64,000 nucleotides of DNA from Salinispira sp. (lineage in GTDB: Bacteria; Spirochaetota; Spirochaetia; DSM-27196; Salinispiraceae): the NCBI GenBank assembly GCA_965602015.1, contig OZ271918.1, positions 3,296,001 to 3,360,000 on the forward strand, written 5' to 3'. The notes under the pieces were generated by a model that saw only the letters and a list, made by a program, of their open reading frames with translations, did not search any database and had not been told where the DNA came from. Shown one piece after another: positions 42,744-53,905 of the stretch (position 1 is the stretch's first letter; each line of letters opens with the position of its first letter). The position numbers and the translations under genes were made by a program.

Positions 42744-42890
42744 AGCCACATATCAGGGAGTTGTAGTCTACCACAAATCGCATTAATACTCACGGATTTG
42801 GTTTGGTGACCGGAGCAGTTTTGCAGAGGGGATTTCTGTGCTGAAGGTATGTTGAAAGAAAGAAATGAATGGGGCGCGAGGATTCGCGCC
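42744..42890 (+). repeat. ~147 bp island repeat, copy A
   Basis: AGCCACRTATCAGGGAGTT...TATGTTGAAAGAAAG..GGCGCGAGGATTCGCGCC shared with 47689-47836 and 50676-50822. Confidence 0.9.
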
Positions 42891-42936
42891 TTCTGTATAC
42901 TGGAAAATAGTATCATTATTTGATATCATTCTTATT

Positions 42937-43190
42937 TTGAATGCCAAGAACCGTAAAATTCTGAAGGCGATCTTCACTGACCCGTGAAATCGAATATTGC
43001 CTGGTCCGACATCGAATCTTTACTGCTTAATCTGAATGCAGGAAGGAAGGAGGGTTCTGGTTCCCGAGTCGCATTCACATTGAACGGTGTTGTCTTAGTC
43101 ATTCATAGACTGTATCCGAGAAAAGAAACTGATAAAGGGGCTGTTAAATCGGTTCGGAGATTTTTATCGAACTCAGGAGTAATGCCATGA
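42937..43190 (+). pseudogene. hicA: HicA-family toxin, frameshifted
   Basis: TTG 42937 reads MNAKNRKILKAIFTDP then TGA; remainder (VKSNIAWSDIE...GSGSRV) continues in a shifted frame from 42984. Confidence 0.8.
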
Positions 43191-43522
43191 AATATAAAGG
43201 GTATACCGGTGTGGTCGAATATGATGATGACGCTCATATTTTCCACGGAGAAGTTATTGGGCTAAAAGATGTAATCACTTTTCAGGGATCATCGATTGAA
43301 GAACTTGAGGCAGCGATGGCCGAATCAGTGGATTTTTATCTCGAAGTATGTCGTGATAAGGGAAAGGAACCTGAGAAGCCGTTCTCAGGGAGATTTGTCG
43401 TCAGGACTTCTCCCGACCTTCATAGCCGCGCCGCTACCGCTGCAGCAAAACTGGGCTTATCACTGAATAAATATGTTGAAAAAGCTATCGAGGATGAAAC
43501 CCGACAAGTATTGCCCATGTAA
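43187..43522 (+). CDS. hicB: HicB-family antitoxin
   Basis: MKYKGY, DVITFQG, KPFSGRFVVR, SLNKYV. Confidence 0.92.
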   Translation: MKYKGYTGVVEYDDDAHIFHGEVIGLKDVITFQGSSIEELEAAMAESVDFYLEVCRDKGKEPEKPFSGRFVVRTSPDLHSRAATAAAKLGLSLNKYVEKAIEDETRQVLPM

Positions 43523-43635
43523 TAACAACCACTTAACCTGTGAGCCGTATACTGGCGACTGGCGCGTGTCCTTGCCGGCGAAGCCGATGCAAGGACCGTG
43601 AAAATAGGCGAATCAGGTTGAAGTGCTTGTTATAT
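43520..43635 (-). mobile_element. attC: Integron attC recombination site
   Basis: Minus strand R'' ATATAAC-5-L'' CTTCAACC ... L' GGTTAAG-5-R' GTTATTA, with an extra base in L'' and an internal hairpin. Confidence 0.82.
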
Positions 43636-43684
43636 AGCAGTCGTGATAGGCTTCCGCAAATTTAGCTGCCAACACTGGTCCTGA

Positions 43685-44095
43685 CTAATCTGACACCCAA
43701 TTTTCCATCTTTAGATCCGGAATCCGTTCAAACTCTCGAAGATTATTTGAGACCAAAATCAGATCATGTGCCCTCGCCTGAGCTCCGATAAGCATATCCA
43801 TATTTCCTATAAGCTCACCTTTCCTGGAAAGCATTGCCCTGATATTTCCATATTCAAATGCAGCACTCGAATCAAAATCGACGATCGCAAAGGGTAATAA
43901 AAATTCAAAAAGGGCCTCCCGATTCCGCTCTCTAAATTCGATTGCAGATTTCGCAATTCCAAACTCCAATTCTGCGATCGTAATTGTGGATATTCCAATT
44001 GAGTCGATTCCGTGAGCTTCGATGCGCTCAATCAGGGATTGGAATTTTCGATTGATGAGATAGATACAGATATTCGTATCAAAGAGGTACTTCAT
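43685..44095 (-). CDS. vapC: VapC PIN-domain toxin
   Basis: YLFDTNICI, AELEFG, DMLIGAQA, SNNLREF. Confidence 0.95.
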   Translation of the reverse strand: MKYLFDTNICIYLINRKFQSLIERIEAHGIDSIGISTITIAELEFGIAKSAIEFRERNREALFEFLLPFAIVDFDSSAAFEYGNIRAMLSRKGELIGNMDMLIGAQARAHDLILVSNNLREFERIPDLKMENWVSD

Positions 44096-44098
44096 CTC

Positions 44099-44326
44099 TT
44101 ACAAATCTTCACGTGACTGAGGAAGATCATTTTCGTGAGCGAGTTCGAAATCAGGTGAAAACTTATCGAAGGATTGTTTAAAAAGATCCCAGACTTTATC
44201 TTTTGGAATGAGCATGACGATGTCATCGATCTTTTTGATAAATACGTCATCCCCAGAAAATCGATATTCCTTAGGAAGTCTGACTGCTTGGCTTCGCCCA
44301 TTTTCAAATAGTTTAGCTGTATCCAT
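44099..44326 (-). CDS. vapB: VapB (AbrB-type) antitoxin
   Basis: [20 protein letters not shown]. Confidence 0.95.
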
Positions 44327-44417
44327 TTCGTGCCCCTAGAAAATAATATATATTCAAGTATATATCTACCGTCATAATCAATCAATGATTTGAGATCGAT
44401 CACAAATCAGGAACAAG

Positions 44418-45767
44418 AATGGTGTCCAAATTAGTTCGCAATTTCATGTAGGAGCCAGCTTCCTCCAGCGGGTTAAGCGGCTATTTTCGGGATGAGATCT
44501 CGTTGCTCATCCAGTATTTCCTTTTTAATATAGGCCTTGCCGGCTGTCCAGTCTTCCGTGTATTCAATCAGGAAACAGGTCACCAATCTCAGGTAAGAAT
44601 CCTGAGATGGGAAAATCCCGACGACTTTCGACCGCCGACGGATCTCCCGGTTCAGTCTTTCCAGCATGTTTGTCGAAGCGACCTTCCGATGATCGAGCTT
44701 TGGAAATTCATAGAACTGGAGTGAGTCTTCAAGTCCGTTATCCAGGATTTCCACCGCCTCAGGGAATTGCGATTCCAGATCATCCATCACCTGTTTGGCA
44801 TATTCCCGTGCGGTACCGGCATCCGGTTGAAGCCAGATATGTTTGATACGGGCGGCAACATGCTCTTTGTGTTTGGCTCTCACTTTTGCCAACACGTTCC
44901 GCATGAAATGTACTTTGCAGCGTTGCCAGCTGGAACCAAGGAATTCTTTCTGGATAGCATTCTTCAATCCCAGATGCGCATCTGAGACCACAAGCCACAC
45001 GGACCGAAGGCCACGCTCCTTCAACCTCTGGATCAGGAACCGGTAATTGTCTTCATTTTCAGCATCCATGGGCTCTATTGCCAGGATTTCCCGTTCTCCA
45101 GCCCTGTTGAGGCCGCACACGACCATAACCGCATGATTGTAGACTCTCCCGTCATCCCGGATCTTTTCATACAGGGCGTCTATCCAGATTACTGGGTACT
45201 CCGCTTCAAGGGGGCGATTGCGAAATGTATCAACCTGTTCATCAAGACCTTTGTTGATTTCTGAAACCTGGCTTGCGGAAATATTCTCGATTCCCAGCTG
45301 TTTTGCCAGACGATCAATCTTCCGGGTTGAAACGCCGTTAATGAATGCTTCCTGGACAACCTGAAGAAGCGCCTGCTCAGACCGGCGCTTCTCGGTGACA
45401 AAGAAGGGGATATACCCTCCCTTTCGGAGCTTTGGAACCACCAGATACATGGTACCTAATCGGGTATCAAAACGGCGAACCCGTGTTCCGGAAAAGTGAG
45501 TAGCCCGGTTGTGGGAGTGCTGACCTTTGGGGGCACCGACCTTGAATTCGACTTCGATTTTCATAAGCTGCTCTGTTGTCCATTTGAGCATCTCAAACAA
45601 GGGATCGGATTCACCGGTGAATTGGGATAGCAGATTCTTGAAATCTGCGGTAGAGTTTTTTGGGGCCATGATTACTTACTCCTTCTGGTTGTGTATCGCT
45701 ACTTAACCTTCGGAGAGAATTGTGGCTCCTTTTACTTTTCTAAATTGCGAACATTATTGGACGTGAT
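44418..45767 (-). mobile_element. IS256-family insertion sequence (ends approximate)
   Basis: Imperfect terminal IRs GTCCAA-N4-GTTCGCAATTT at about 44424 and 45763; no clear target duplication seen. Confidence 0.85.
44473..45669 (-). CDS. IS256-family (Mutator) transposase
   Basis: GVSTRK, WIDALYEKIR, VSDAHLGL, WQRCKVHFMRN, STNMLERLNREIRRR. Confidence 0.95.
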   Translation of the reverse strand: MAPKNSTADFKNLLSQFTGESDPLFEMLKWTTEQLMKIEVEFKVGAPKGQHSHNRATHFSGTRVRRFDTRLGTMYLVVPKLRKGGYIPFFVTEKRRSEQALLQVVQEAFINGVSTRKIDRLAKQLGIENISASQVSEINKGLDEQVDTFRNRPLEAEYPVIWIDALYEKIRDDGRVYNHAVMVVCGLNRAGEREILAIEPMDAENEDNYRFLIQRLKERGLRSVWLVVSDAHLGLKNAIQKEFLGSSWQRCKVHFMRNVLAKVRAKHKEHVAARIKHIWLQPDAGTAREYAKQVMDDLESQFPEAVEILDNGLEDSLQFYEFPKLDHRKVASTNMLERLNREIRRRSKVVGIFPSQDSYLRLVTCFLIEYTEDWTAGKAYIKKEILDEQRDLIPKIAA

Positions 45768-45833: not shown

Positions 45834-46076
45834 CTATATCCGTATCTCCTTTCCAATTGATAGAATGGTGATAAGTATTAGGAGGATGTAACCAATTGCG
45901 ACTCCATAGAATCTATAATCTATTTTAGATTTTTTTTTGATTTTGCTTATGAAATACGGTATCACAACGAAAGTCCCTAGTAGAAAGGGTACTAATATCA
46001 CGGGAAGACCCATGTTCTCAAATAACACAAATATTGGATCTAATATCCGCCGAAATAAATCTACTTTGGTATTCAA
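45834..46076 (-). CDS. Putative immunity protein of Rhs module 1 (small, two TM helices)
   Basis: Low GC, AGGAG RBS, 8 bp after the Rhs stop. Confidence 0.7.
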   Translation of the reverse strand: MNTKVDLFRRILDPIFVLFENMGLPVILVPFLLGTFVVIPYFISKIKKKSKIDYRFYGVAIGYILLILITILSIGKEIRI

Positions 46077-46084
46077 ATATACTC

Positions 46085-47644
46085 CTAATTATCAGGTAGA
46101 GTTTCACCAACAGTAAAGACAGAAACCCCAATGGAAGCCTCGGCAATTAGTACAGCTCTTGCACTATTTGTAGCAATAAATCGACCATTCGCCGAATTTA
46201 TAAATCTCTGAGCGCCTTGGTTAAATGCAGGTGCAGGGAGAATAAACCCAAGTACACCAGAAAAAGCTGATAGACCAGCACTTACATAATCACCCTCCAC
46301 GACATAGGCAACGCTTGCAAGCAAATCTAGTCCTGCAGATATTCCAAAAAGTATCGGTGCGGCGGCTGGTAAAGAAAAGACTGCAACCATCCCACCGGCA
46401 GTAAATGCTAAAGAAGCATTCGAAACAATGTCAGCAAATTCACCTACACCATCCAGACTATCGCTAGAAGGATCGTTATTCTGACTGTCAATCAAACCCG
46501 ATAGATCATATCCTGCAGCTTCATAATCCTGGATTCCTCGGAGCAGCTCTTTTGCTAAATCCTCTAACTCTTGCTTGTAGGCAAGAAATTCATCCAGCGT
46601 CATGCCGCTGGTATCTTGTTGTGAGAGTTTAACGAGTTTTTCTGACTGTTGGGTTATTGATTCCTGGGCAGAAATACCAGTGGAGACATGATTGATCTGT
46701 TCGGTTATTTCCTCATAGCTGGCAACCTCTGTTGTTGTTTCTTCTACGTTTCCATAATTCTCATTTTCAGGGGTTTTTGTATGGTAATCCCCGGCATCGA
46801 AGATCGTTGTACCCCAGCTCACTTCATTCAAACCGGTTGGATCGAAGTATTTGAGGGGATTGCTCGCTGCATACCGATACCAGTTCGAACCGAACCGTGC
46901 AGGATCCTCGCTTATAAACCTACCCGTCCCCGGGTCATACCACCGAGTATTGAAATAATACAGCCCGGTATCTTCATCCAGGTCCTTTCCGGTGTACATG
47001 AGGTTTTCTGTGTCAGCCATGGGTCCTAATTCTGATACCGAGTCGCCGAAGGGGGTGGTTTCTGCTGAGAAGACTTCGTTGCCGTCTTCGTCTGTCATCA
47101 GCACGGTGCTTCCCAGGTGGTCTGTGCCGTAGAAGTAGGTCTTTTCCGTGTTGGTGCTGTGGTCTACCACCCGTTTGGCAATGTGGCGGAGGTTTCTGAA
47201 TATGTAGTATTCGCTTTTCTCTTCTGTGTGCCGTTCGATTCTGTTGCCCTTTTGGTCGTAGACGTAATGGGTGATCTGGCCGTGTCGGTTTTTCTCCCAT
47301 ATCCTCAGGTTATTCACATCATAGCCGTATTCTTTTATTACCTCCAGATTGCCCTCTTCATCGAGCTCTTCGACGGTCTCAAGGCGGTTTAACAGGTCCC
47401 AGCTGTAGTGGCGGTAGGTTCCTGTCCGGTTGATGGTGATTTCACTGCCGGTGATTGTGGCGCTGTCTCCCCGTTCTGTGAGGTTGCCGTTCTCATCATA
47501 GGCATAGTAGTAGGTTCCGTCGTATTGGAGCAGGTCTGAGTTGGGGTAGTACTGGTATTGCTCACTCTGCATGCTGCCGGCGAGGATGCTTCGCATGGAG
47601 CGGTTGCCGTCGGGGGTGTAGTTGTAGAACTCGTTGCGGCCCAT
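46085..47644 (-). CDS. Orphan Rhs repeat-associated core with hydrophobic C-terminal toxin tip (module 1)
   Basis: YD repeats, TDHLGS, YTGKDLDEDTGLYYF..RWYDP..GRFISEDP, NPLKYFDPTG; far shorter than a full Rhs. Confidence 0.9.
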   Translation of the reverse strand: MGRNEFYNYTPDGNRSMRSILAGSMQSEQYQYYPNSDLLQYDGTYYYAYDENGNLTERGDSATITGSEITINRTGTYRHYSWDLLNRLETVEELDEEGNLEVIKEYGYDVNNLRIWEKNRHGQITHYVYDQKGNRIERHTEEKSEYYIFRNLRHIAKRVVDHSTNTEKTYFYGTDHLGSTVLMTDEDGNEVFSAETTPFGDSVSELGPMADTENLMYTGKDLDEDTGLYYFNTRWYDPGTGRFISEDPARFGSNWYRYAASNPLKYFDPTGLNEVSWGTTIFDAGDYHTKTPENENYGNVEETTTEVASYEEITEQINHVSTGISAQESITQQSEKLVKLSQQDTSGMTLDEFLAYKQELEDLAKELLRGIQDYEAAGYDLSGLIDSQNNDPSSDSLDGVGEFADIVSNASLAFTAGGMVAVFSLPAAAPILFGISAGLDLLASVAYVVEGDYVSAGLSAFSGVLGFILPAPAFNQGAQRFINSANGRFIATNSARAVLIAEASIGVSVFTVGETLPDN

Positions 47645-47986: not shown

Positions 47987-48358
47987 ATGGCTGAGTATCT
48001 TTTCAAGGAACTGTCCTACACGGTGGTGGGAGCGTTGTATTCGGTGCACAACATCCTGGGTCCCGGGCTTTTGGAAAGCGCGTACGAGGGTGCGCTGGTT
48101 ATTGAGTGTCGCAGGCTGAATCTGGCGGTGGAACAGCAGAAGGTGTATCCGGTGTACTACAAAGGCGAGCTTGCCGGGGCGTACATTGCAGACCTGGTAA
48201 TTGAAGGAAAGCTCATCCTCGAACTAAAAAGTGTTTCCAAGCTCACTCCAGTTATGGAAGCCCAGCTCATAAATTACCTCAGGCTTTCGGGCATCCGCAT
48301 AGGGTACCTGGTAAACTTCAACGGCAGCAGGGTGGAGTTTAAGCGTTTTGTTGTGTGA
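47987..48358 (+). CDS. GxxExxY protein (PD-(D/E)XK nuclease superfamily), copy 1
   Basis: GPGLLESAY, ADLVIEGKLILELK, AQLINYL, GYLVNF; AGGAGG RBS. Confidence 0.92.
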   Translation: MAEYLFKELSYTVVGALYSVHNILGPGLLESAYEGALVIECRRLNLAVEQQKVYPVYYKGELAGAYIADLVIEGKLILELKSVSKLTPVMEAQLINYLRLSGIRIGYLVNFNGSRVEFKRFVV

Positions 48359-48493
48359 AGTTTTTTCTCTTCTGCAGGCTGCTGCAAGCATCAGCGGTCT
48401 GCAGAAGAGTTCTTGCTCAGCGGGAGCAAGATGCTCTTCGATAGGTCCGTCACTGACTGACGTATGTCAAAGAACTTGTTTGTCGGCTCAACC

Positions 48494-48562
48494 CCCATAA
48501 GAAGGATACTTGGAGCTGACGCCGGGATTGGATCCGGCGCAGCTCAAGTCTGGTCTTATGGG
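48494..48562 (+). repeat. attC-like bulged hairpin with non-canonical core, copy 1
   Basis: CCCATAAGA-AGGAT-ACTT(G)GAGCTG(A)CGCCGG-loop-CCGGCGCAGCTCAAGT-CTGG-TCTTATGGG. Confidence 0.75.
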
Positions 48563-48598
48563 TTTGTAGTACCCTGTCTTGTATGGCAAAATTGATCA

Positions 48599-49102
48599 TC
48601 ACATTGAAGACCAATCTATTTCGTAAATTTCAATTATTTTTGTTTTGTTTGAATATACCAGATTATAGGGATCAGATGAGGTCAAATCATTGCAATCATG
48701 TTCAATAACTCTCACAATGAACCTATACTCCTCAACCAAGGACGGTTGAATCTCCAATTCAACACCGACTACTGAATCGGTTTCGCGCAGTGTTTCGAGG
48801 ATTAAGTTCCCTTTCCCATCAAAAAAAGTCTGGGAATCATACTTGAGGAGTACATGAAAATCACGATATTCGGAATTTCTCGAAAAAAGTATCGCTTTTT
48901 CAATTACAGAGTTGCTCCCATCACAGAACGAGGCAGCAATTAAATATTGGATATTCTCGATAACAATAGTCGTATCCAATATGCTGAATTCAGTTGAAGA
49001 GAAAAAATCTTCGACTTCCGGGTTTATGTATTCTCCATCACCACATAGATGCGCTAAAAAAATTAACATATAAATTAATAAAAATGTATTTAATTTCTTC
49101 AT
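48599..49102 (-). CDS. Putative exported immunity protein of Rhs module 2
   Basis: Signal-peptide-like N-terminus MKKLNTFLLIYMLIFLA; low GC; directly after the toxin. Confidence 0.72.
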   Translation of the reverse strand: MKKLNTFLLIYMLIFLAHLCGDGEYINPEVEDFFSSTEFSILDTTIVIENIQYLIAASFCDGSNSVIEKAILFSRNSEYRDFHVLLKYDSQTFFDGKGNLILETLRETDSVVGVELEIQPSLVEEYRFIVRVIEHDCNDLTSSDPYNLVYSNKTKIIEIYEIDWSSM

Positions 49103-49110
49103 TTCATTTC

Positions 49111-50631
49111 CTACTCAAATAATATGTATCGCCAGTTTACTTGGCGGTTCTGGACATTGTGAACGGGTCTGAACGATCCTCGTATGATAATTGTACCGGC
49201 ATTAGACGGCGTATCATTGGTCCGTCCTCCCTGTGGATGTACCATCAGGCCATTTCCCAATTTTATTGTTACATGGTCGTAAACACCGTCCGGATCAGAT
49301 AGATTTCCCCAATCGTAATAATTCAGTGTACCTCTCGATCCATCACCCGCAACAGTTAAATTAGGATCGGTTGCTTGCCCATTAGCATTGCGTGTTCTGA
49401 GGAGTATTCCAGAAGCTTGTTCAATTACAGCCTCAGCCGTACCAGAGCAGTCTAATCCCCCCTTGTCATTATCTGGTTTGCCTCCCCAAATATACGGAGT
49501 GCCAACATATTTTTCGGCTTCATCCGCTAATCTGTCATTCAGTATTAGATTAACAAGCGGCTCTGACTGGTTATAATCTTCAACCAAAATATTGCGAATC
49601 AGATCATCTTCTGCAGACTGAATTTGTGAGTCAATTTCTTGAATCCATTCTTCATCATTGGTAATTGACTGGATTTGATCTCGTTCTGCATACAATTCTG
49701 AGATTCCGGTTTTTTCCTCTTCGATCATCGTGTACCGGATATTGGACAATACAGACTCTGGCATCCCTAAGTCACGTAGATTTTCTAGTTCAGTTTCATG
49801 TTCCTGGGAAATTAATCCGGACGGGTCTACATACCTCAACGGATTGTTTGCAACATAAACATACCACGCCCGGCCGTCGCGAGCAGGATCCTCGCTTATA
49901 AACCTCCCCACCGTTGGGTCATACCAGCGCGCATTGAAATAATACAGCCCGGTATCTTCATCCAGGTCCTTTCCGGTGTACATGAGGTTTTCTGTGTCAG
50001 CCATGGGTCCTAATTCTGATACCGAGTCGCCGAAGGGGGTGGTTTCTGCTGAGAAGACTTCGTTGCCGTCTTCGTCTGTCATCAGCACGGTGCTTCCCAG
50101 GTGGTCTGTGCCGTAGAAGTAGGTCTTTTCCGTGTTGGTGCTGTGGTCTACCACCCGTTTGGCGATGTGGCGGAGGTTTCTGAAGATGTAGTATTCGCTT
50201 TGCTCGTCGGTGTGCCGTTCGATTCTGTTGCCCTTTTGGTTATAGACGTAATGGGTGATTTGGCCGTGTCGGTTTTTCTCCCATATCCTCAGGTTATTCA
50301 CATCATAGCCGTATTCTTTTATTACTTCCAGATTGCCTTCTTCATCGAGCTCTTCGACGGTCTCAAGGCGGTTTAACAGGTCCCAGCTGTAGTGGCGGTA
50401 GGTTCCTGTCCGGTTGATGGTGATTTCACTGTCGGTGATTGTGGCGCTGTCTCCCCGTTCGGTGAGGTTTCCGTTCTCATCATAGGCATAGTAGTAGGTT
50501 CCGTCGTATTGGAGCAGGTCTGAGTTGGGGTAGTACTGGTATTGTTCGCTGACCGGGGGGCTGCCGGCGATGATGCTTCGCATGGAGCGGTTGCCGTAGG
50601 GGGTGTAGTTGTAGAACTCGTTGCGGCCCAA
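49111..50631 (-). CDS. Orphan Rhs core with NlpC/P60 peptidoglycan-hydrolase tip (module 2)
   Basis: Rhs core ending NPLRYVDPSG; YVGTPYIWGG...GLDCSG...DHV...MVH. Confidence 0.9.
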   Translation of the reverse strand: MGRNEFYNYTPYGNRSMRSIIAGSPPVSEQYQYYPNSDLLQYDGTYYYAYDENGNLTERGDSATITDSEITINRTGTYRHYSWDLLNRLETVEELDEEGNLEVIKEYGYDVNNLRIWEKNRHGQITHYVYNQKGNRIERHTDEQSEYYIFRNLRHIAKRVVDHSTNTEKTYFYGTDHLGSTVLMTDEDGNEVFSAETTPFGDSVSELGPMADTENLMYTGKDLDEDTGLYYFNARWYDPTVGRFISEDPARDGRAWYVYVANNPLRYVDPSGLISQEHETELENLRDLGMPESVLSNIRYTMIEEEKTGISELYAERDQIQSITNDEEWIQEIDSQIQSAEDDLIRNILVEDYNQSEPLVNLILNDRLADEAEKYVGTPYIWGGKPDNDKGGLDCSGTAEAVIEQASGILLRTRNANGQATDPNLTVAGDGSRGTLNYYDWGNLSDPDGVYDHVTIKLGNGLMVHPQGGRTNDTPSNAGTIIIRGSFRPVHNVQNRQVNWRYILFE

Positions 50632-50992
50632 AAGCTCGGCGGTGAGAAATTTTTAAAGCCGTGGGGATGGGAGGAAGCCACGTATCAGGGAGTTTTGGTC
50701 TACCACCTATGGTACAAATCCTCACGGATTGGGTTTGGGGAGCGGGCCGGTTCTGTAAAAGGGATTTCTCTGCTGATGGTATGTTGAAAGAAAGCAATGA
50801 ATCGGGCGCGAGGATTCGCGCCTTCTTCCCTATGCCTTGGGCTGTGCTGTCTGGCTTCCCCCGTTTCTCTCAAGTGTATCTCTCCGCTCCTCGCGGTCAA
50901 GGCAGCCTGGTTGTTTTCTCAATTTATTGGCAGGTCTTCCCACCTTGACCACTCGTCGCTTCGAGACTGCCTCCTGAAAAAAGGAGGTCAGC

Positions 50993-51364
50993 ATGGCTGA
51001 GTATCTTTTCAAGGAACTGTCCTACACGGTGGTGGGAGCGTTGTATTCGGTGCACAACATCCTGGGTCCCGGGCTTTTGGAAAGCGCGTACGAGGGTGCA
51101 CTGGTTATTGAGTGTCGCAGGCTGAATCTGGCGGTGGAACAGCAGAAGGTGTATCCGGTGTACTACAAAGGCGAGCTTGCCGGGGCGTACATTGCAGACC
51201 TGGTGGTCGAGGGCAAGGTCATTGTTGAATTAAAAAGCGTTTCGAAACTTACCCCGGTCATGGAAGCCCAGCTCATAAATTACCTCAGGCTTTCGGGCAT
51301 CCGCATAGGGTACCTGGTAAACTTCAACGGTAGCCGGGTGGAGTTTAAGCGTTTTGTAGTGTGA
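50993..51364 (+). CDS. GxxExxY protein, copy 2
   Basis: Near-identical to 47987-48358. Confidence 0.92.
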   Translation: MAEYLFKELSYTVVGALYSVHNILGPGLLESAYEGALVIECRRLNLAVEQQKVYPVYYKGELAGAYIADLVVEGKVIVELKSVSKLTPVMEAQLINYLRLSGIRIGYLVNFNGSRVEFKRFVV

Positions 51365-51490
51365 AGTTTTTTCTCTTCTGCAGGCTGCTGCAAGCATCAG
51401 CGGTCTGCAGAAGAGTTCTTGCTATCTGTCCGCATCATATGGAGTAAAAACATTGACAATCCGTCGCTTATATGCGACATTAATTCGATA

Positions 51491-51823
51491 GTGAGTATTG
51501 AATATGAAGTGATAATTTATTCGGACGAAAGTGGTAAAGAGCCATTTTCTAAATTTATCTCATCTATAACAACTCCGTTTCGCGCGCGGATTTTTTCTCG
51601 TCTTGACCGCGTCTCTCGAGGTAATTTGGGCGATGTAAAAATGCTTGGAGCGAATTTTGGCGAAATGAGATTCCATTTCGGTCCAGGGTTTCGAGTGTAT
51701 TTTGGAATCCATGAAAGGACACTCATTGTCCTACTACATGGTGGTACAAAACATCGTCAGAATAAGGATATTGAAAAAGCCAGAGTGTTTTGGCAGGACT
51801 ATTTAGAAAGGATGGTAAAATGA
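51491..51823 (+). CDS. RelE/HigB-like addiction module toxin
   Basis: GKEPF, GNLGDVK, EMRFHFGPGFRVYF, LLHGGTK..Q.KDI; promoter TTGACA 51453 with GTCGC-N6-GCGAC dyad. Confidence 0.9.
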   Translation: MSIEYEVIIYSDESGKEPFSKFISSITTPFRARIFSRLDRVSRGNLGDVKMLGANFGEMRFHFGPGFRVYFGIHERTLIVLLHGGTKHRQNKDIEKARVFWQDYLERMVK

Positions 51824-52116
51824 AAAATTATAGAAAATTGGTTCAAGAATATGTCAAAGATCCTAACGAAGCATACGAATACCTAAAGGCATCACTTGAA
51901 GATTATGAAACAGATGGGGATCTCGATGCATTCCTTCTCGCTATACGAACAGTTGCAGATGCGCAGGGCGGGATGACAAAACTTTCAGAAGTTACCCATC
52001 TTAATCGACAACATCTATACCGTTCGCTTGCTCGAAATGGGAACCCAACGATAAAAACCCTTGATTCGATACTGCATGCCCTCGGGCTAAAACTGACAGT
52101 AACAAAGGCTTCCTGA
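51820..52116 (+). CDS. Addiction module antitoxin (HigA-like HTH)
   Basis: AIRTVADAQGGMTKLS, LYRSL..NGNPT; ATGA overlap with the toxin. Confidence 0.9.
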   Translation: MKNYRKLVQEYVKDPNEAYEYLKASLEDYETDGDLDAFLLAIRTVADAQGGMTKLSEVTHLNRQHLYRSLARNGNPTIKTLDSILHALGLKLTVTKAS

Positions 52117-52201
52117 ATTTCAATTGGGATTGCCGAAGGTAAGCTCTTTGACTGAATGGTCACTTACTTACGTTTTTCAAAGAAGGCTTCGCCGGCTTTC
52201 C

Positions 52202-52272
52202 CCCCATAAGAAAGATACTTGGAGCTGACGCCGGGTTTGGATCCGGCGCAGCTCAAGTTGGGTCTTATGGGG
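52202..52272 (+). repeat. attC-like bulged hairpin with non-canonical core, copy 2
   Basis: Same stems as 48494-48562; four differences, all at unpaired positions. Confidence 0.75.
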
Positions 52273-52543: not shown

Positions 52544-53905
52544 TTATTGAGTTATTTCTCCTACCCCTAATTCATACATGTCACATATAAACCAAGCAAA
52601 ATCTTCATTTTGTGTTATGGCAAGCACAGTCGGAAATACAATATTTTCTGGTATTGATTGTTCTGTTCCCATAAGCCCTTCTATAAACCTTTCCGTAATT
52701 TAATGTCAGATCAGCAATACCGGTTAGTATTATTGGTATTCCAACAAAATCTCCAGGACCAGGAATTGGTGAATCTAGTGCAGCAAAGCCTAATCCGACA
52801 CTAATCTGACCGAAGCCTCTGAACATTCCGCCTATTCCTTCAAGGGTCCTTACTAAATCAATCTGCCAAGTTTGAGAAACGCTACTGTGAGCACCTGCTG
52901 TTGATTCTGTTGCTTCACTCATGTATCCAGCAGCTTCATAATCCTGGATCCCTTGGAGCAGCTCCCTTGCTAAATCCTCTAACTCTTGCTGGTAAGCAAG
53001 AAATTCATCCAAGGTCATGCCGCTGGTATCTTGTTGTGAGAGTTTAACGAGCTTTTCTGACTGTTGGGTTATTGATTCCTGGGCAGAAATACCAGTGGAG
53101 ACATGATTGATCTGTTCGGTTATTTCCTCATAGCTGGCAACCTCTGTTGTTGTTTCTTCTACGTTTCCATAATTCTCATTTTCAGGGGTATCTGTGTGAT
53201 AATCCCCGGCATCGAATATGCTCGTGCCCCAGCTCACTTCATTCAAACCGGTCGGATCGAAGTATTTGAGGGGATTGCTCGCTGCATACCGGTACCAGTT
53301 CGATCCGAACCTCGCCGGATCCTCGCTTATAAACCTCCCGGTCCCCGGGTCATACCACCGAGCATTGAAATAGTACAACCCGGTATCTTCATCCAGGTCC
53401 TTGCCGGTGTACATGAGGTTTTCTGTGTCGGTCATGGGTCCTGATTCGGAGACCGAGTCGCCGAAGGGGGTGGTTTCTCCGGAGAAGACTTCGTTGCCAA
53501 AGCTGTCTGTCATCAGGACGGTGCTTCCCAGGTGGTCTGTGCCGTAGAAGTAGATCTGGGCTACATTGGTTTGCTTGTCCACTACCCGTTTGGCGATGTG
53601 GCGGAGATTTCTGAAGATGTAGTATTCGCTTCTTTGGTCTGTGTGCCGTTCGATTCTGTTGCCCTTTTGGTCGTAGACGTAATGGGTGATTTGGCCATGT
53701 CGGTTTTTCTCCCATATCCTCAGGTTATTCACATCATAGCCGTATTCTTTTATCACGCCCAGATTGCCCTCTTCATCGAGGTCTTCGACGTTTTCCAGGC
53801 GGTTTAACAGGTCCCAGCTGTAGTGGCGGTAGGTTCCTGTCCGGTTGATGGTGATTTTAGTGCCGGTGATTGTGGCGCTGTCTCCCCGTTTGATGAGGTT
53901 TCCCT
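52544..53905 (-). pseudogene. Orphan Rhs module 3, 5'-truncated with a frameshifted tip
   Basis: Rhs homology starts at about 53905 (GNLIKRGDS); ORF 52605-53756; alternative frame from about 52690 runs to TAA 52544. Confidence 0.78.

What the first reader, a model, noticed from the sequence alone, without database searches (positions are those of the whole stretch)
48494..52272. Two attC-architecture hairpins with TAAG/CTTA instead of TAAC/GTTA cores
Seen: 48494-48562 and 52202-52272 fold as outer stem CCCATAAGA/TCTTATGGG, an asymmetric unpaired spacer, then ACTT(G)GAGCTG(A)CGCCGG/CCGGCGCAGCTCAAGT with two single extrahelical bases on one arm. The four differences between copies all fall in unpaired positions, as expected if structure is selected. 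Known: this layout (R box, unpaired central spacer, L box, extrahelical bases, terminal loop) defines integron attC sites, whose AAC/GTT triplet is essentially invariant. Here both arms carry the compensatory AAG/CTT, and the left spacer is 7 nt rather than 5. Inference: a variant ssDNA recombination site for a recombinase of different specificity, which standard attC models could miss. There is no T tract, so it is not a terminator.
Basis: partly seen in the sequence, partly recalled or inferred. Interest (0 to 1): 0.8.

Follow-up and report, generated by a model that had tools for sequence, protein, structure and literature searches.

The report
Recoded integron sites in toxin arrays
These hairpins resemble the DNA sites that integrons use to shuffle genes, but with the crossover letter changed on both arms, and they sit at the ends of toxin-immunity modules in two related species, where they likely form a separate shuffling channel that would not mix with the cell's ordinary gene cassettes.

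Summary
The two hairpins are real (z about -8). They are 2 of 8 copies in this genome, and a sister species has 5 more. The two species differ by three fully compensatory pairs, so the fold is conserved. Every copy lies at the 3' end of an orphan toxin-immunity module, pointing against it, behind a nuclease or toxin-antitoxin passenger. The stem is homologous to canonical spirochaete attC sites, and the genome has an intact integron with 27 ordinary GTT sites. A second non-GTT class (AAT/ATT; 5 copies, 3 genera) occurs at Rhs loci of the same family. Published mutagenesis shows that IntI1 recombines CTT with CTT and ATT with ATT at wild-type rate, but about 300-700-fold worse with a GTT attI. 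A new recombinase is therefore not needed; the best reading is natural orthogonal attC sites used by the host integrase (about 45%). Against this: no excision was seen, the left spacer here is 7 nt, the purine skew is reversed, two R' mutations are unmirrored, and distant spirochaetes have GTT hairpins at comparable spots. No convincing homologue was found outside the family.

The parts
48494..48562 (+). attC-like hairpin 1 with AAG/CTT core; predicted crossover C|TT between 48555 and 48556
   Evidence: crossover position inferred from attC geometry
52202..52272 (+). attC-like hairpin 2; predicted crossover between 52264 and 52265
48359..48493 (+). conserved segment between GxxExxY and the hairpin; holds a terminator-like stem at 48367-48409; its last ~60 nt are homologous to the stretch before hairpin 2
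47987..48358 (+). GxxExxY PD-(D/E)XK nuclease gene, passenger in front of hairpin 1
   Evidence: PF13366 E=1.6e-36; TIGR04256
50993..51364 (+). second GxxExxY gene
51419..52116 (+). RelE/ParE toxin and HI1420-type antidote pair, passenger in front of hairpin 2
   Evidence: TIGR02683, TIGR02684
47688..47750 (+). 'SiteL': conserved direct-repeat segment at the other end of the passenger unit, next to the start of an Rhs fragment
50675..50735 (+). SiteL, second copy
42744..42894 (+). SiteL and leader at the left end of the array, next to the chromosome
48599..49102 (-). predicted immunity gene; stop codon about 35 nt from hairpin 1
   Evidence: position after the Rhs C-terminus, no Pfam hit
49111..50631 (-). 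orphan Rhs core fragment with NlpC/P60 C-terminal toxin domain
   Evidence: TIGR03696, PF00877
52349..52534 (-). predicted small membrane immunity gene (61 aa) ending about 77 nt from hairpin 2
52605..53756 (-). first Rhs fragment of the array, joined to the 3' end of a chromosomal gene at the same core position as in the two other arrays
46085..47644 (-). third Rhs fragment; its predicted immunity gene is 45834-46076; no hairpin follows (an IS256-type element lies at 44473-45669)
43519..43637 (-). canonical AAC/GTT attC of the host family after a VapBC pair, inside the same hypervariable locus

Best explanation
The hairpins are attC-derived sites whose crossover base is C on both arms, placed at the end of toxin-immunity modules, and they likely act as orthogonal recombination sites for the host's own integron integrase. 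Shown: the structure, its conservation by compensatory change, homology to canonical attC, position at module ends, and an intact intI in both genomes. Inferred: IntI binds the folded bottom strand and cuts at AA|G. Because strand exchange needs only this one base to match, CTT sites would recombine with each other but about 10^3-fold less with the GTT attI and cassettes. CTT x CTT recombination between neighbouring copies would excise or reorder 3-5 kb units (immunity gene, toxin fragment, SiteL, passenger), which could re-enter at another CTT site or by homologous recombination through the Rhs core. The toxin-antitoxin passengers would penalise loss of a unit, as in sedentary integrons (recalled knowledge).
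For: 8 copies in G000 and 5 plus a half copy in G002, all in toxin orphan arrays. Between the species, 6 of 50 paired positions differ, as three fully compensatory pairs, against 9 of 15 unpaired positions (Fisher p=4e-4). L-box words of the G002 copies match host attC, in both 2-bulge and 3-bulge forms. A model of canonical spirochaete attC scores 4 of 5 G002 CTT copies and 5 of 5 ATT sites on the expected strand. IntI is intact in G000 (380 bits), G002 and G005. The G000 genome-wide scan gives 27 GTT sites, all in integron-type contexts, and 8 family CTT sites, all in Rhs arrays. A second class, AAT/ATT, has 5 copies in 3 genera, each after an Rhs-linked gene. PMC2811028 Table 4: CTTxCTT 0.97, ATTxATT 1, CTTxwt 1.5e-3, ATTxwt 3.1e-3, TTTxTTT 0.044, so the two natural classes are the two fully active ones. 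G-to-C at the first bulge is tolerated (PMC2727003 passages; PMC3053210 abstract). Four decayed solitary copies of the same stem family elsewhere are uncompensated. Identity ends 8-9 nt past the crossover base in all 8 G000 copies, each followed by a different flank.
Against: No recombination product was seen. The left spacer is 7 nt in G000, against the usual 5-6 (PMC5027507) and 5 in all 27 host GTT sites. GC skew of the top strand is positive in 13 of 13 CTT copies, opposite to mobile-integron attC, and the bottom strand folds better in only 5 of 13 (host GTT sites give 14 of 27, so this test discriminates poorly). The R'/next-R'' test that marks the GTT array as shuffled (9 of 9 matches in 10 of 10 pairs) is mostly uninformative for CTT, and the two informative R' mutations in G002 are not mirrored in the next site. 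No CTT-type attI was found; both host attI candidates have G. Neither complete genome holds a full-length toxin of the array's family. G003 has an ATT site but no IntI over the cut-off (95% complete). 49 of 56 Rhs loci scanned had no such hairpin, and distant spirochaetes have GTT-core hairpins after immunity genes. Only two species carry the CTT form.
Confidence: 0.45

Rival explanations
1. The hairpin is a retired attC: it came in with a cassette, lost contact with the integron, and is kept as an RNA or DNA stem between convergent genes (3'-end protection or termination). It spreads passively as part of repeated units copied by homologous recombination.
For: It lies -8 to 118 nt from an upstream stop codon, between convergent genes in most copies. 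Selection on an RNA stem also gives compensatory pairs. The skew is reversed, the 7-nt spacer and unmirrored R' mutations suggest drift. The units share more than 1 kb of homology, enough for RecA. Conservation extends 50-60 nt upstream of the hairpin in most copies.
Against: No T-tract call on either strand. A plain stem would not need both bulges at attC spacing in 13 of 13 copies. It does not explain why the compensated change hits the crossover base in two separate classes, while decayed copies elsewhere are uncompensated.
Confidence: 0.3
2. The hairpin is the substrate of another tyrosine recombinase that acts in trans or is now lost, for example the twin XerD-like integrases of primase-bearing integrative elements that carry Rhs C-termini, or an unseen integron with a C-type attI. 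The arrays here would be miniature relics of such elements.
For: G003 toxin loci carry fragments of a XerD-like recombinase. Its full-length relatives lie in tandem elements (TA, HTH, ParA, primase, two integrases) that alternate with Rhs-CT/immunity modules, as the passenger units do here. One has an attC-like hairpin with 6/6 spacers after the immunity gene (L245). Longer spacers would suit a different enzyme. All three G000 arrays start at nearly the same Rhs core position.
Against: No such recombinase in G000 or G002 at E<=1e-50. The tyrosine recombinases found are IntI, a XerC/XerD-like pair and two others in G000, one other in G002. Most of those elements show no hairpin of this family.
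Confidence: 0.2
3. REP-like repeat or end of an HUH (Y1) transposon.
For: A bulged hairpin of about 70 nt in several copies.
Against: No PF01797 match in G000. Copies are confined to toxin arrays. Clear homology to attC.
Confidence: 0.03

Closest known systems
Integron attC sites, closest the short canonical family of genus g22 in the same class and the host's own attC
   Same: R and L boxes, unpaired spacer, bulge at L position 4 and a second bulge 6 bp on, short terminal loop, related L-box words, IntI in the genome
   Different: AAG/CTT instead of AAC/GTT; spacers 7/6 or 6/6 instead of 5/5; reversed GC skew; not in an intI-linked array; 3-5 kb multi-gene units with toxin modules in opposite orientation
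Engineered G1 variants attCaadA7-CTT and -ATT (Frumerie et al., PMC2811028)
   Same: Same compensated change of the crossover base on both arms
   Different: Those are laboratory mutants tested against attI1 with IntI1; the paper speaks of absolute conservation of GTT in characterized integrons; attC x attC was not in the table read
rAID-1 of Bacteroidales (10.1101/471110; PMC12247911)
   Same: Arrays of interbacterial-defence genes punctuated by conserved intergenic motifs, likened to integrons
   Different: rAID has a XerD-family recombinase at the 5' end and co-oriented orphan immunity genes; here modules keep toxin fragments, passengers are interleaved, and no recombinase is linked
Orphan Rhs and effector-immunity arrays built by C-terminal displacement (PMC5361080)
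   Same: Strings of truncated toxin 3' ends with immunity genes
   Different: There the model is homologous or homology-facilitated illegitimate recombination, and the authors found no evidence for an integrase; here each module ends at an attC-type site

Membership tests
Integron attC | Complementary R'' and R' boxes closing a stem | tested here: met
   313 of 325 pair cells are Watson-Crick over 13 copies
Integron attC | Conserved AAC/GTT triplet | tested here: not met
   AAG in 13 of 13, with C opposite in 13 of 13; one copy reads CTC
Integron attC | L''/L' boxes with first extrahelical base, last bulge (T on bottom strand) 6 bp further | tested here: met
   13 of 13; bottom-strand first bulge is C in G000, G in G002; two copies have a third bulge
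Integron attC | Unpaired central spacer of 5-6 nt per arm | tested here: not met
   7/6 or 7/5 in G000; 6/6 in G002 meets it
Integron attC | Purine-rich, more stable bottom strand | tested here: not met
   GC skew positive in 13 of 13; bottom folds better in 5 of 13; host GTT control 14 of 27
Integron attC | Detected by a covariance model of canonical attC | tested here: inconclusive
   Home-made model from 16 canonical sites finds 4 of 5 G002 copies and 0 of 8 G000 copies; IntegronFinder's model was not available
Integron attC | Integron integrase in the genome | tested here: met
   TIGR02249 380 bits in G000, 384 in G002; it is not linked to the arrays
Integron attC | Cassette-shuffling signature (R' matches the next site's R'') | tested here: inconclusive
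   Works for the GTT array; CTT copies too uniform; 2 informative variants not mirrored
Integron attC | Recombined as a folded single strand by IntI | not testable with these tools
   Needs a bench assay
REP / RAYT | Y1 HUH transposase in the genome; scattered intergenic copies | tested here: not met
Intrinsic terminator | T run after the stem | tested here: not met
rAID-1 | XerD-like recombinase gene at the 5' end of co-oriented immunity genes | tested here: not met
   No PF00589 match at the arrays
Known RNA family (Rfam 15) | Match to a covariance model | tested here: not met
   No match at the hairpins up to E=5

The most novel reading that the evidence does not exclude
Nature has evolved orthogonal integron channels: by recoding the single crossover base (G to C or A), this spirochaete family runs a second cassette pool, devoted to polymorphic toxin-immunity modules, on the same integrase that serves its ordinary integron. 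This would give a site-specific mechanism for building and reshuffling orphan Rhs arrays.
Probability: 0.4. Interest if true: 0.88.

Novelty: new variant of a known kind. Interest (0 to 1): 0.72.

Why it matters
The AAC/GTT triplet is described as the only stretch conserved in all integron sites, kept for universal partner matching (PMC5027507 passage; PMC2811028). Natural, structurally conserved CTT and ATT classes would be the predicted but, as far as my searches went, unreported exception. They would show that one integrase can run insulated pools. They would also make testable an open question: whether orphan toxin arrays are ever shuffled by an integrase (PMC5361080 found no evidence). 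Cassette finders trained on GTT sites may miss such sites, and they would be ready-made orthogonal parts for synthetic integrons.

Tried and rejected
Homologues outside the family. A tight pattern found nothing in viral contigs. A looser one gave 5, 13 and 1 stretches in the genome, metagenome and viral collections; 18 of these 19 do not fold like the family, and one (L050) does but is a single unresolved case. Two further viral scans gave 17 and 9 hits, none with the family's fold. Plasmid BLAST found nothing. A class-wide pattern was too loose: 85 of 401 genomes matched, at about the level of the control. The model of the hairpin hit 3 of 99 order genomes; the third hit (G046) is an AAC-type attC with a broken right arm. 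The SiteL pattern hit 3 of 99; the G459 hit was not examined. SiteL as a C-type attI was considered because it ends in CTT on the toxin strand, and rejected: homology runs on past that point and SiteL does not fold (z 0.3). Insertion of the hairpin at secondary sites was rejected as the origin of the junctions, because the whole R' arm is conserved beyond the crossover. Public runs: no RNA holder listed; four contig sets of one sample show no joint that marks excision between hairpins, and contigs drop rare variants, so this is no evidence either way. Literature searches found no report of natural CTT or ATT attC or of attC in Rhs orphan arrays; the library lacks most subscription papers and I read no supplements, where such sites could be listed. 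Look-ups in earlier scan notes returned nothing similar.
Full report
Observation. Both hairpins are present as described and fold far better than shuffles (z -7.7 and -8.1). Their four differences lie in the spacers and loop. They are not a pair but 2 of 8 copies in this complete genome, in three clusters.

Context. Each cluster is an array of orphan Rhs fragments with predicted immunity genes. On the strand of the hairpin the repeat reads: a conserved direct-repeat segment (SiteL), a passenger gene, the hairpin, then the 3' end of an immunity gene and its toxin fragment on the opposite strand. Passengers are GxxExxY nucleases or a RelE-type toxin-antitoxin pair; one copy has no passenger gene. 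Identity among the 8 copies stops 8-9 nt after the predicted crossover base, and all 8 flanks differ. One copy abuts an insertion sequence rather than an immunity gene. No full-length Rhs gene of this family is in the genome.

Second species. A pattern search of 401 phylum genomes matched only this genome and G002 of the same genus. G002 has 5 full copies and one half copy in one array. Its toxin fragments did not match the G000 Rhs core at E<=1e-20, and its passengers are YhgA-like or HicAB genes, yet hairpin and SiteL are both kept (6 SiteL copies in G002, 8 in G000). In two G002 copies the immunity gene's stop codon lies inside the outer arm. Between the species consensus sequences, 6 of 50 paired positions differ and all six form three compensatory pairs, against 9 of 15 unpaired positions of equal-length blocks (p=4e-4; two consensus sequences only). 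The fold is therefore conserved. The third genome of the genus (83% complete) had no copy.

Relation to attC. G000 and G002 each hold an intact integron integrase, 46% identical, with canonical cassette arrays. A genome-wide architecture scan of G000 gave 27 strict GTT sites, all with 5/5 spacers, plus 9 CTT hits: the 8 family copies and one unrelated 176-nt hit. Two shuffled genomes gave 1 and 0 strict hits. The stem belongs to a family that is canonical, with AAC, in the arrays of genus g22. A model built from 16 such canonical sites scored 4 of 5 G002 copies (20-32 bits) on the expected strand but none of the 8 G000 copies. The hairpin is thus an attC homologue, and the G000 form can escape a canonical model. 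It fails two defining features (triplet, left spacer), so I file it as working like an attC, not as a member.

A second class. I scanned 56 partly overlapping Rhs loci from genomes of the order (439 kb) for attC architecture with any crossover base. Seven loci had a hit and 49 had none: ATT-core sites in G002, G003 and G005, a G000 CTT copy, and one implausible 180-nt hit. There was no GTT hit and none in 364 kb of shuffles (further ATT site). A genome-wide ATT pattern in five family genomes found exactly these 5 sites, in 3 of 5 genomes. They point the same way as the Rhs genes, unlike the CTT class. Caveat: those two searches required the crossover base to pair; three of the ATT sites and all 13 CTT copies were also found by BLAST or a model without that requirement. 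Four solitary decayed copies of the stem family in other genomes have lost AAC without compensation. The segregation is not universal: in a distant family, hairpins after immunity genes have GTT cores (L245 by scan; L247 read by eye).

Mechanism. In Frumerie et al. (PMC2811028; I read parts 2-4 of 5, with Table 4), changing G1 on both arms of attC cuts recombination with wild-type attI1 to 1.5e-3 (CTT) or 3.1e-3 (ATT), and matching the partner restores it to 0.97 or 1; TTT stays poor at 0.044. The two natural classes are the two that work. G-to-C at the first bulge has little effect on attC x attC deletion (PMC2727003, passages), and T-N6-C is efficient for IntI1 (PMC3053210, abstract). Shifting both bulges one base outward, roughly the G002 geometry, improved one synthetic site (PMC7439510, passages); I saw no test of a 7-nt spacer. 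No new enzyme is therefore required. The most likely reading is that the host IntI recombines CTT sites with each other and not with its attI, which has G (candidates), so toxin-immunity units can be excised or reordered apart from the ordinary cassette pool. Binding, cutting, excision and the role of the passengers are all inferred.

Results against. No product was observed. GC skew is reversed in 13 of 13 copies relative to mobile-integron attC (PMC5027507, passages). The signature that shows real shuffling in the GTT array (10 of 10 pairs) is uninformative here, and two G002 R' mutations are not mirrored downstream, which points to some decay. G003 has an ATT site without an IntI over the cut-off. 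How the hairpin first became joined to so many different immunity genes is unexplained, because the junction lies outside the R' arm.

Rivals. A retired attC kept as an RNA stem and spread by homologous recombination explains the position and the compensation, but not the kept bulges or the choice of base. A different recombinase is suggested by XerD-like fragments at G003 toxin loci and by intact primase/twin-integrase elements that alternate with Rhs C-termini in other spirochaetes; none was found in G000 or G002. REP/Y1, terminator and Rfam families are not supported.

Known systems and novelty. Closest are attC sites, the laboratory CTT and ATT mutants, rAID-1 (10.1101/471110 and PMC12247911, passages) and orphan arrays built by displacement (PMC5361080, passages, which report no evidence of an integrase). 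PMC4889954 (passages) describes the triplet as the most conserved part of attC models. Nine library searches showed no report of natural CTT or ATT sites; coverage is partial and no supplement was read. The family is narrow: collection scans gave no convincing outside homologue. The names 'SiteL', 'CTT class' and 'ATT class' are mine. Verdict: a real, conserved new variant of attC tied to toxin arrays; function as an orthogonal site is likely but unproven.

Noticed in passing
L245 1-13335; L246 7775-16767; L247 1527-17649; L248; L249; L242: Integrative elements (BrnT/BrnA-like pair, HTH, ParA, large primase, two XerD-like integrases) in tandem, each followed by a different short Rhs C-terminus and immunity gene; may be toxin-swapping elements. 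One paper search found no description.
   Followed up: partly
window 53903; G000 C1 1922869 and 3788419: All three Rhs arrays begin at nearly the same point of the Rhs core, just after the 3' end of a different housekeeping gene and co-oriented with it; suggests site-specific entry or selection for read-through expression.
   Followed up: partly
L028 1329-1378: The G002 array ends in a half hairpin fused to chromosomal sequence at the loop, where the chromosome resembles the missing arm.
   Followed up: no
window 42900-44400: HicAB-like and VapBC pairs with one canonical attC between them, far from intI; the HicB looks close to one after an ATT site in G005 (L212).
   Followed up: partly
L206 12083-12050, 9315-9384, 3154-3212: SiteL-like segments in both orientations around another Rhs array of G002; they resemble repeats seen upstream of GxxExxY genes in other genomes (L008, L009).
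   Followed up: partly
G000 C1 1742590-1742570 (minus strand): The left box of the host attI candidate contains CATAAG, the same word as the hairpin's outer arm.
   Followed up: no
L050 111-164: Single AAG/CTT hairpin with 6/6 spacers and attC-like bulges after a gene in an unrelated metagenome contig; chance not excluded.
   Followed up: partly
G000 C1 3440000-3457000: A second cluster of 11 canonical attC sites without a neighbouring intI, sharing some sites with the main array.
   Followed up: no
L206 12043-13068 and L247 499-1431: Rhs arrays in two distant families both start right after an ABC-transporter permease gene.
   Followed up: no
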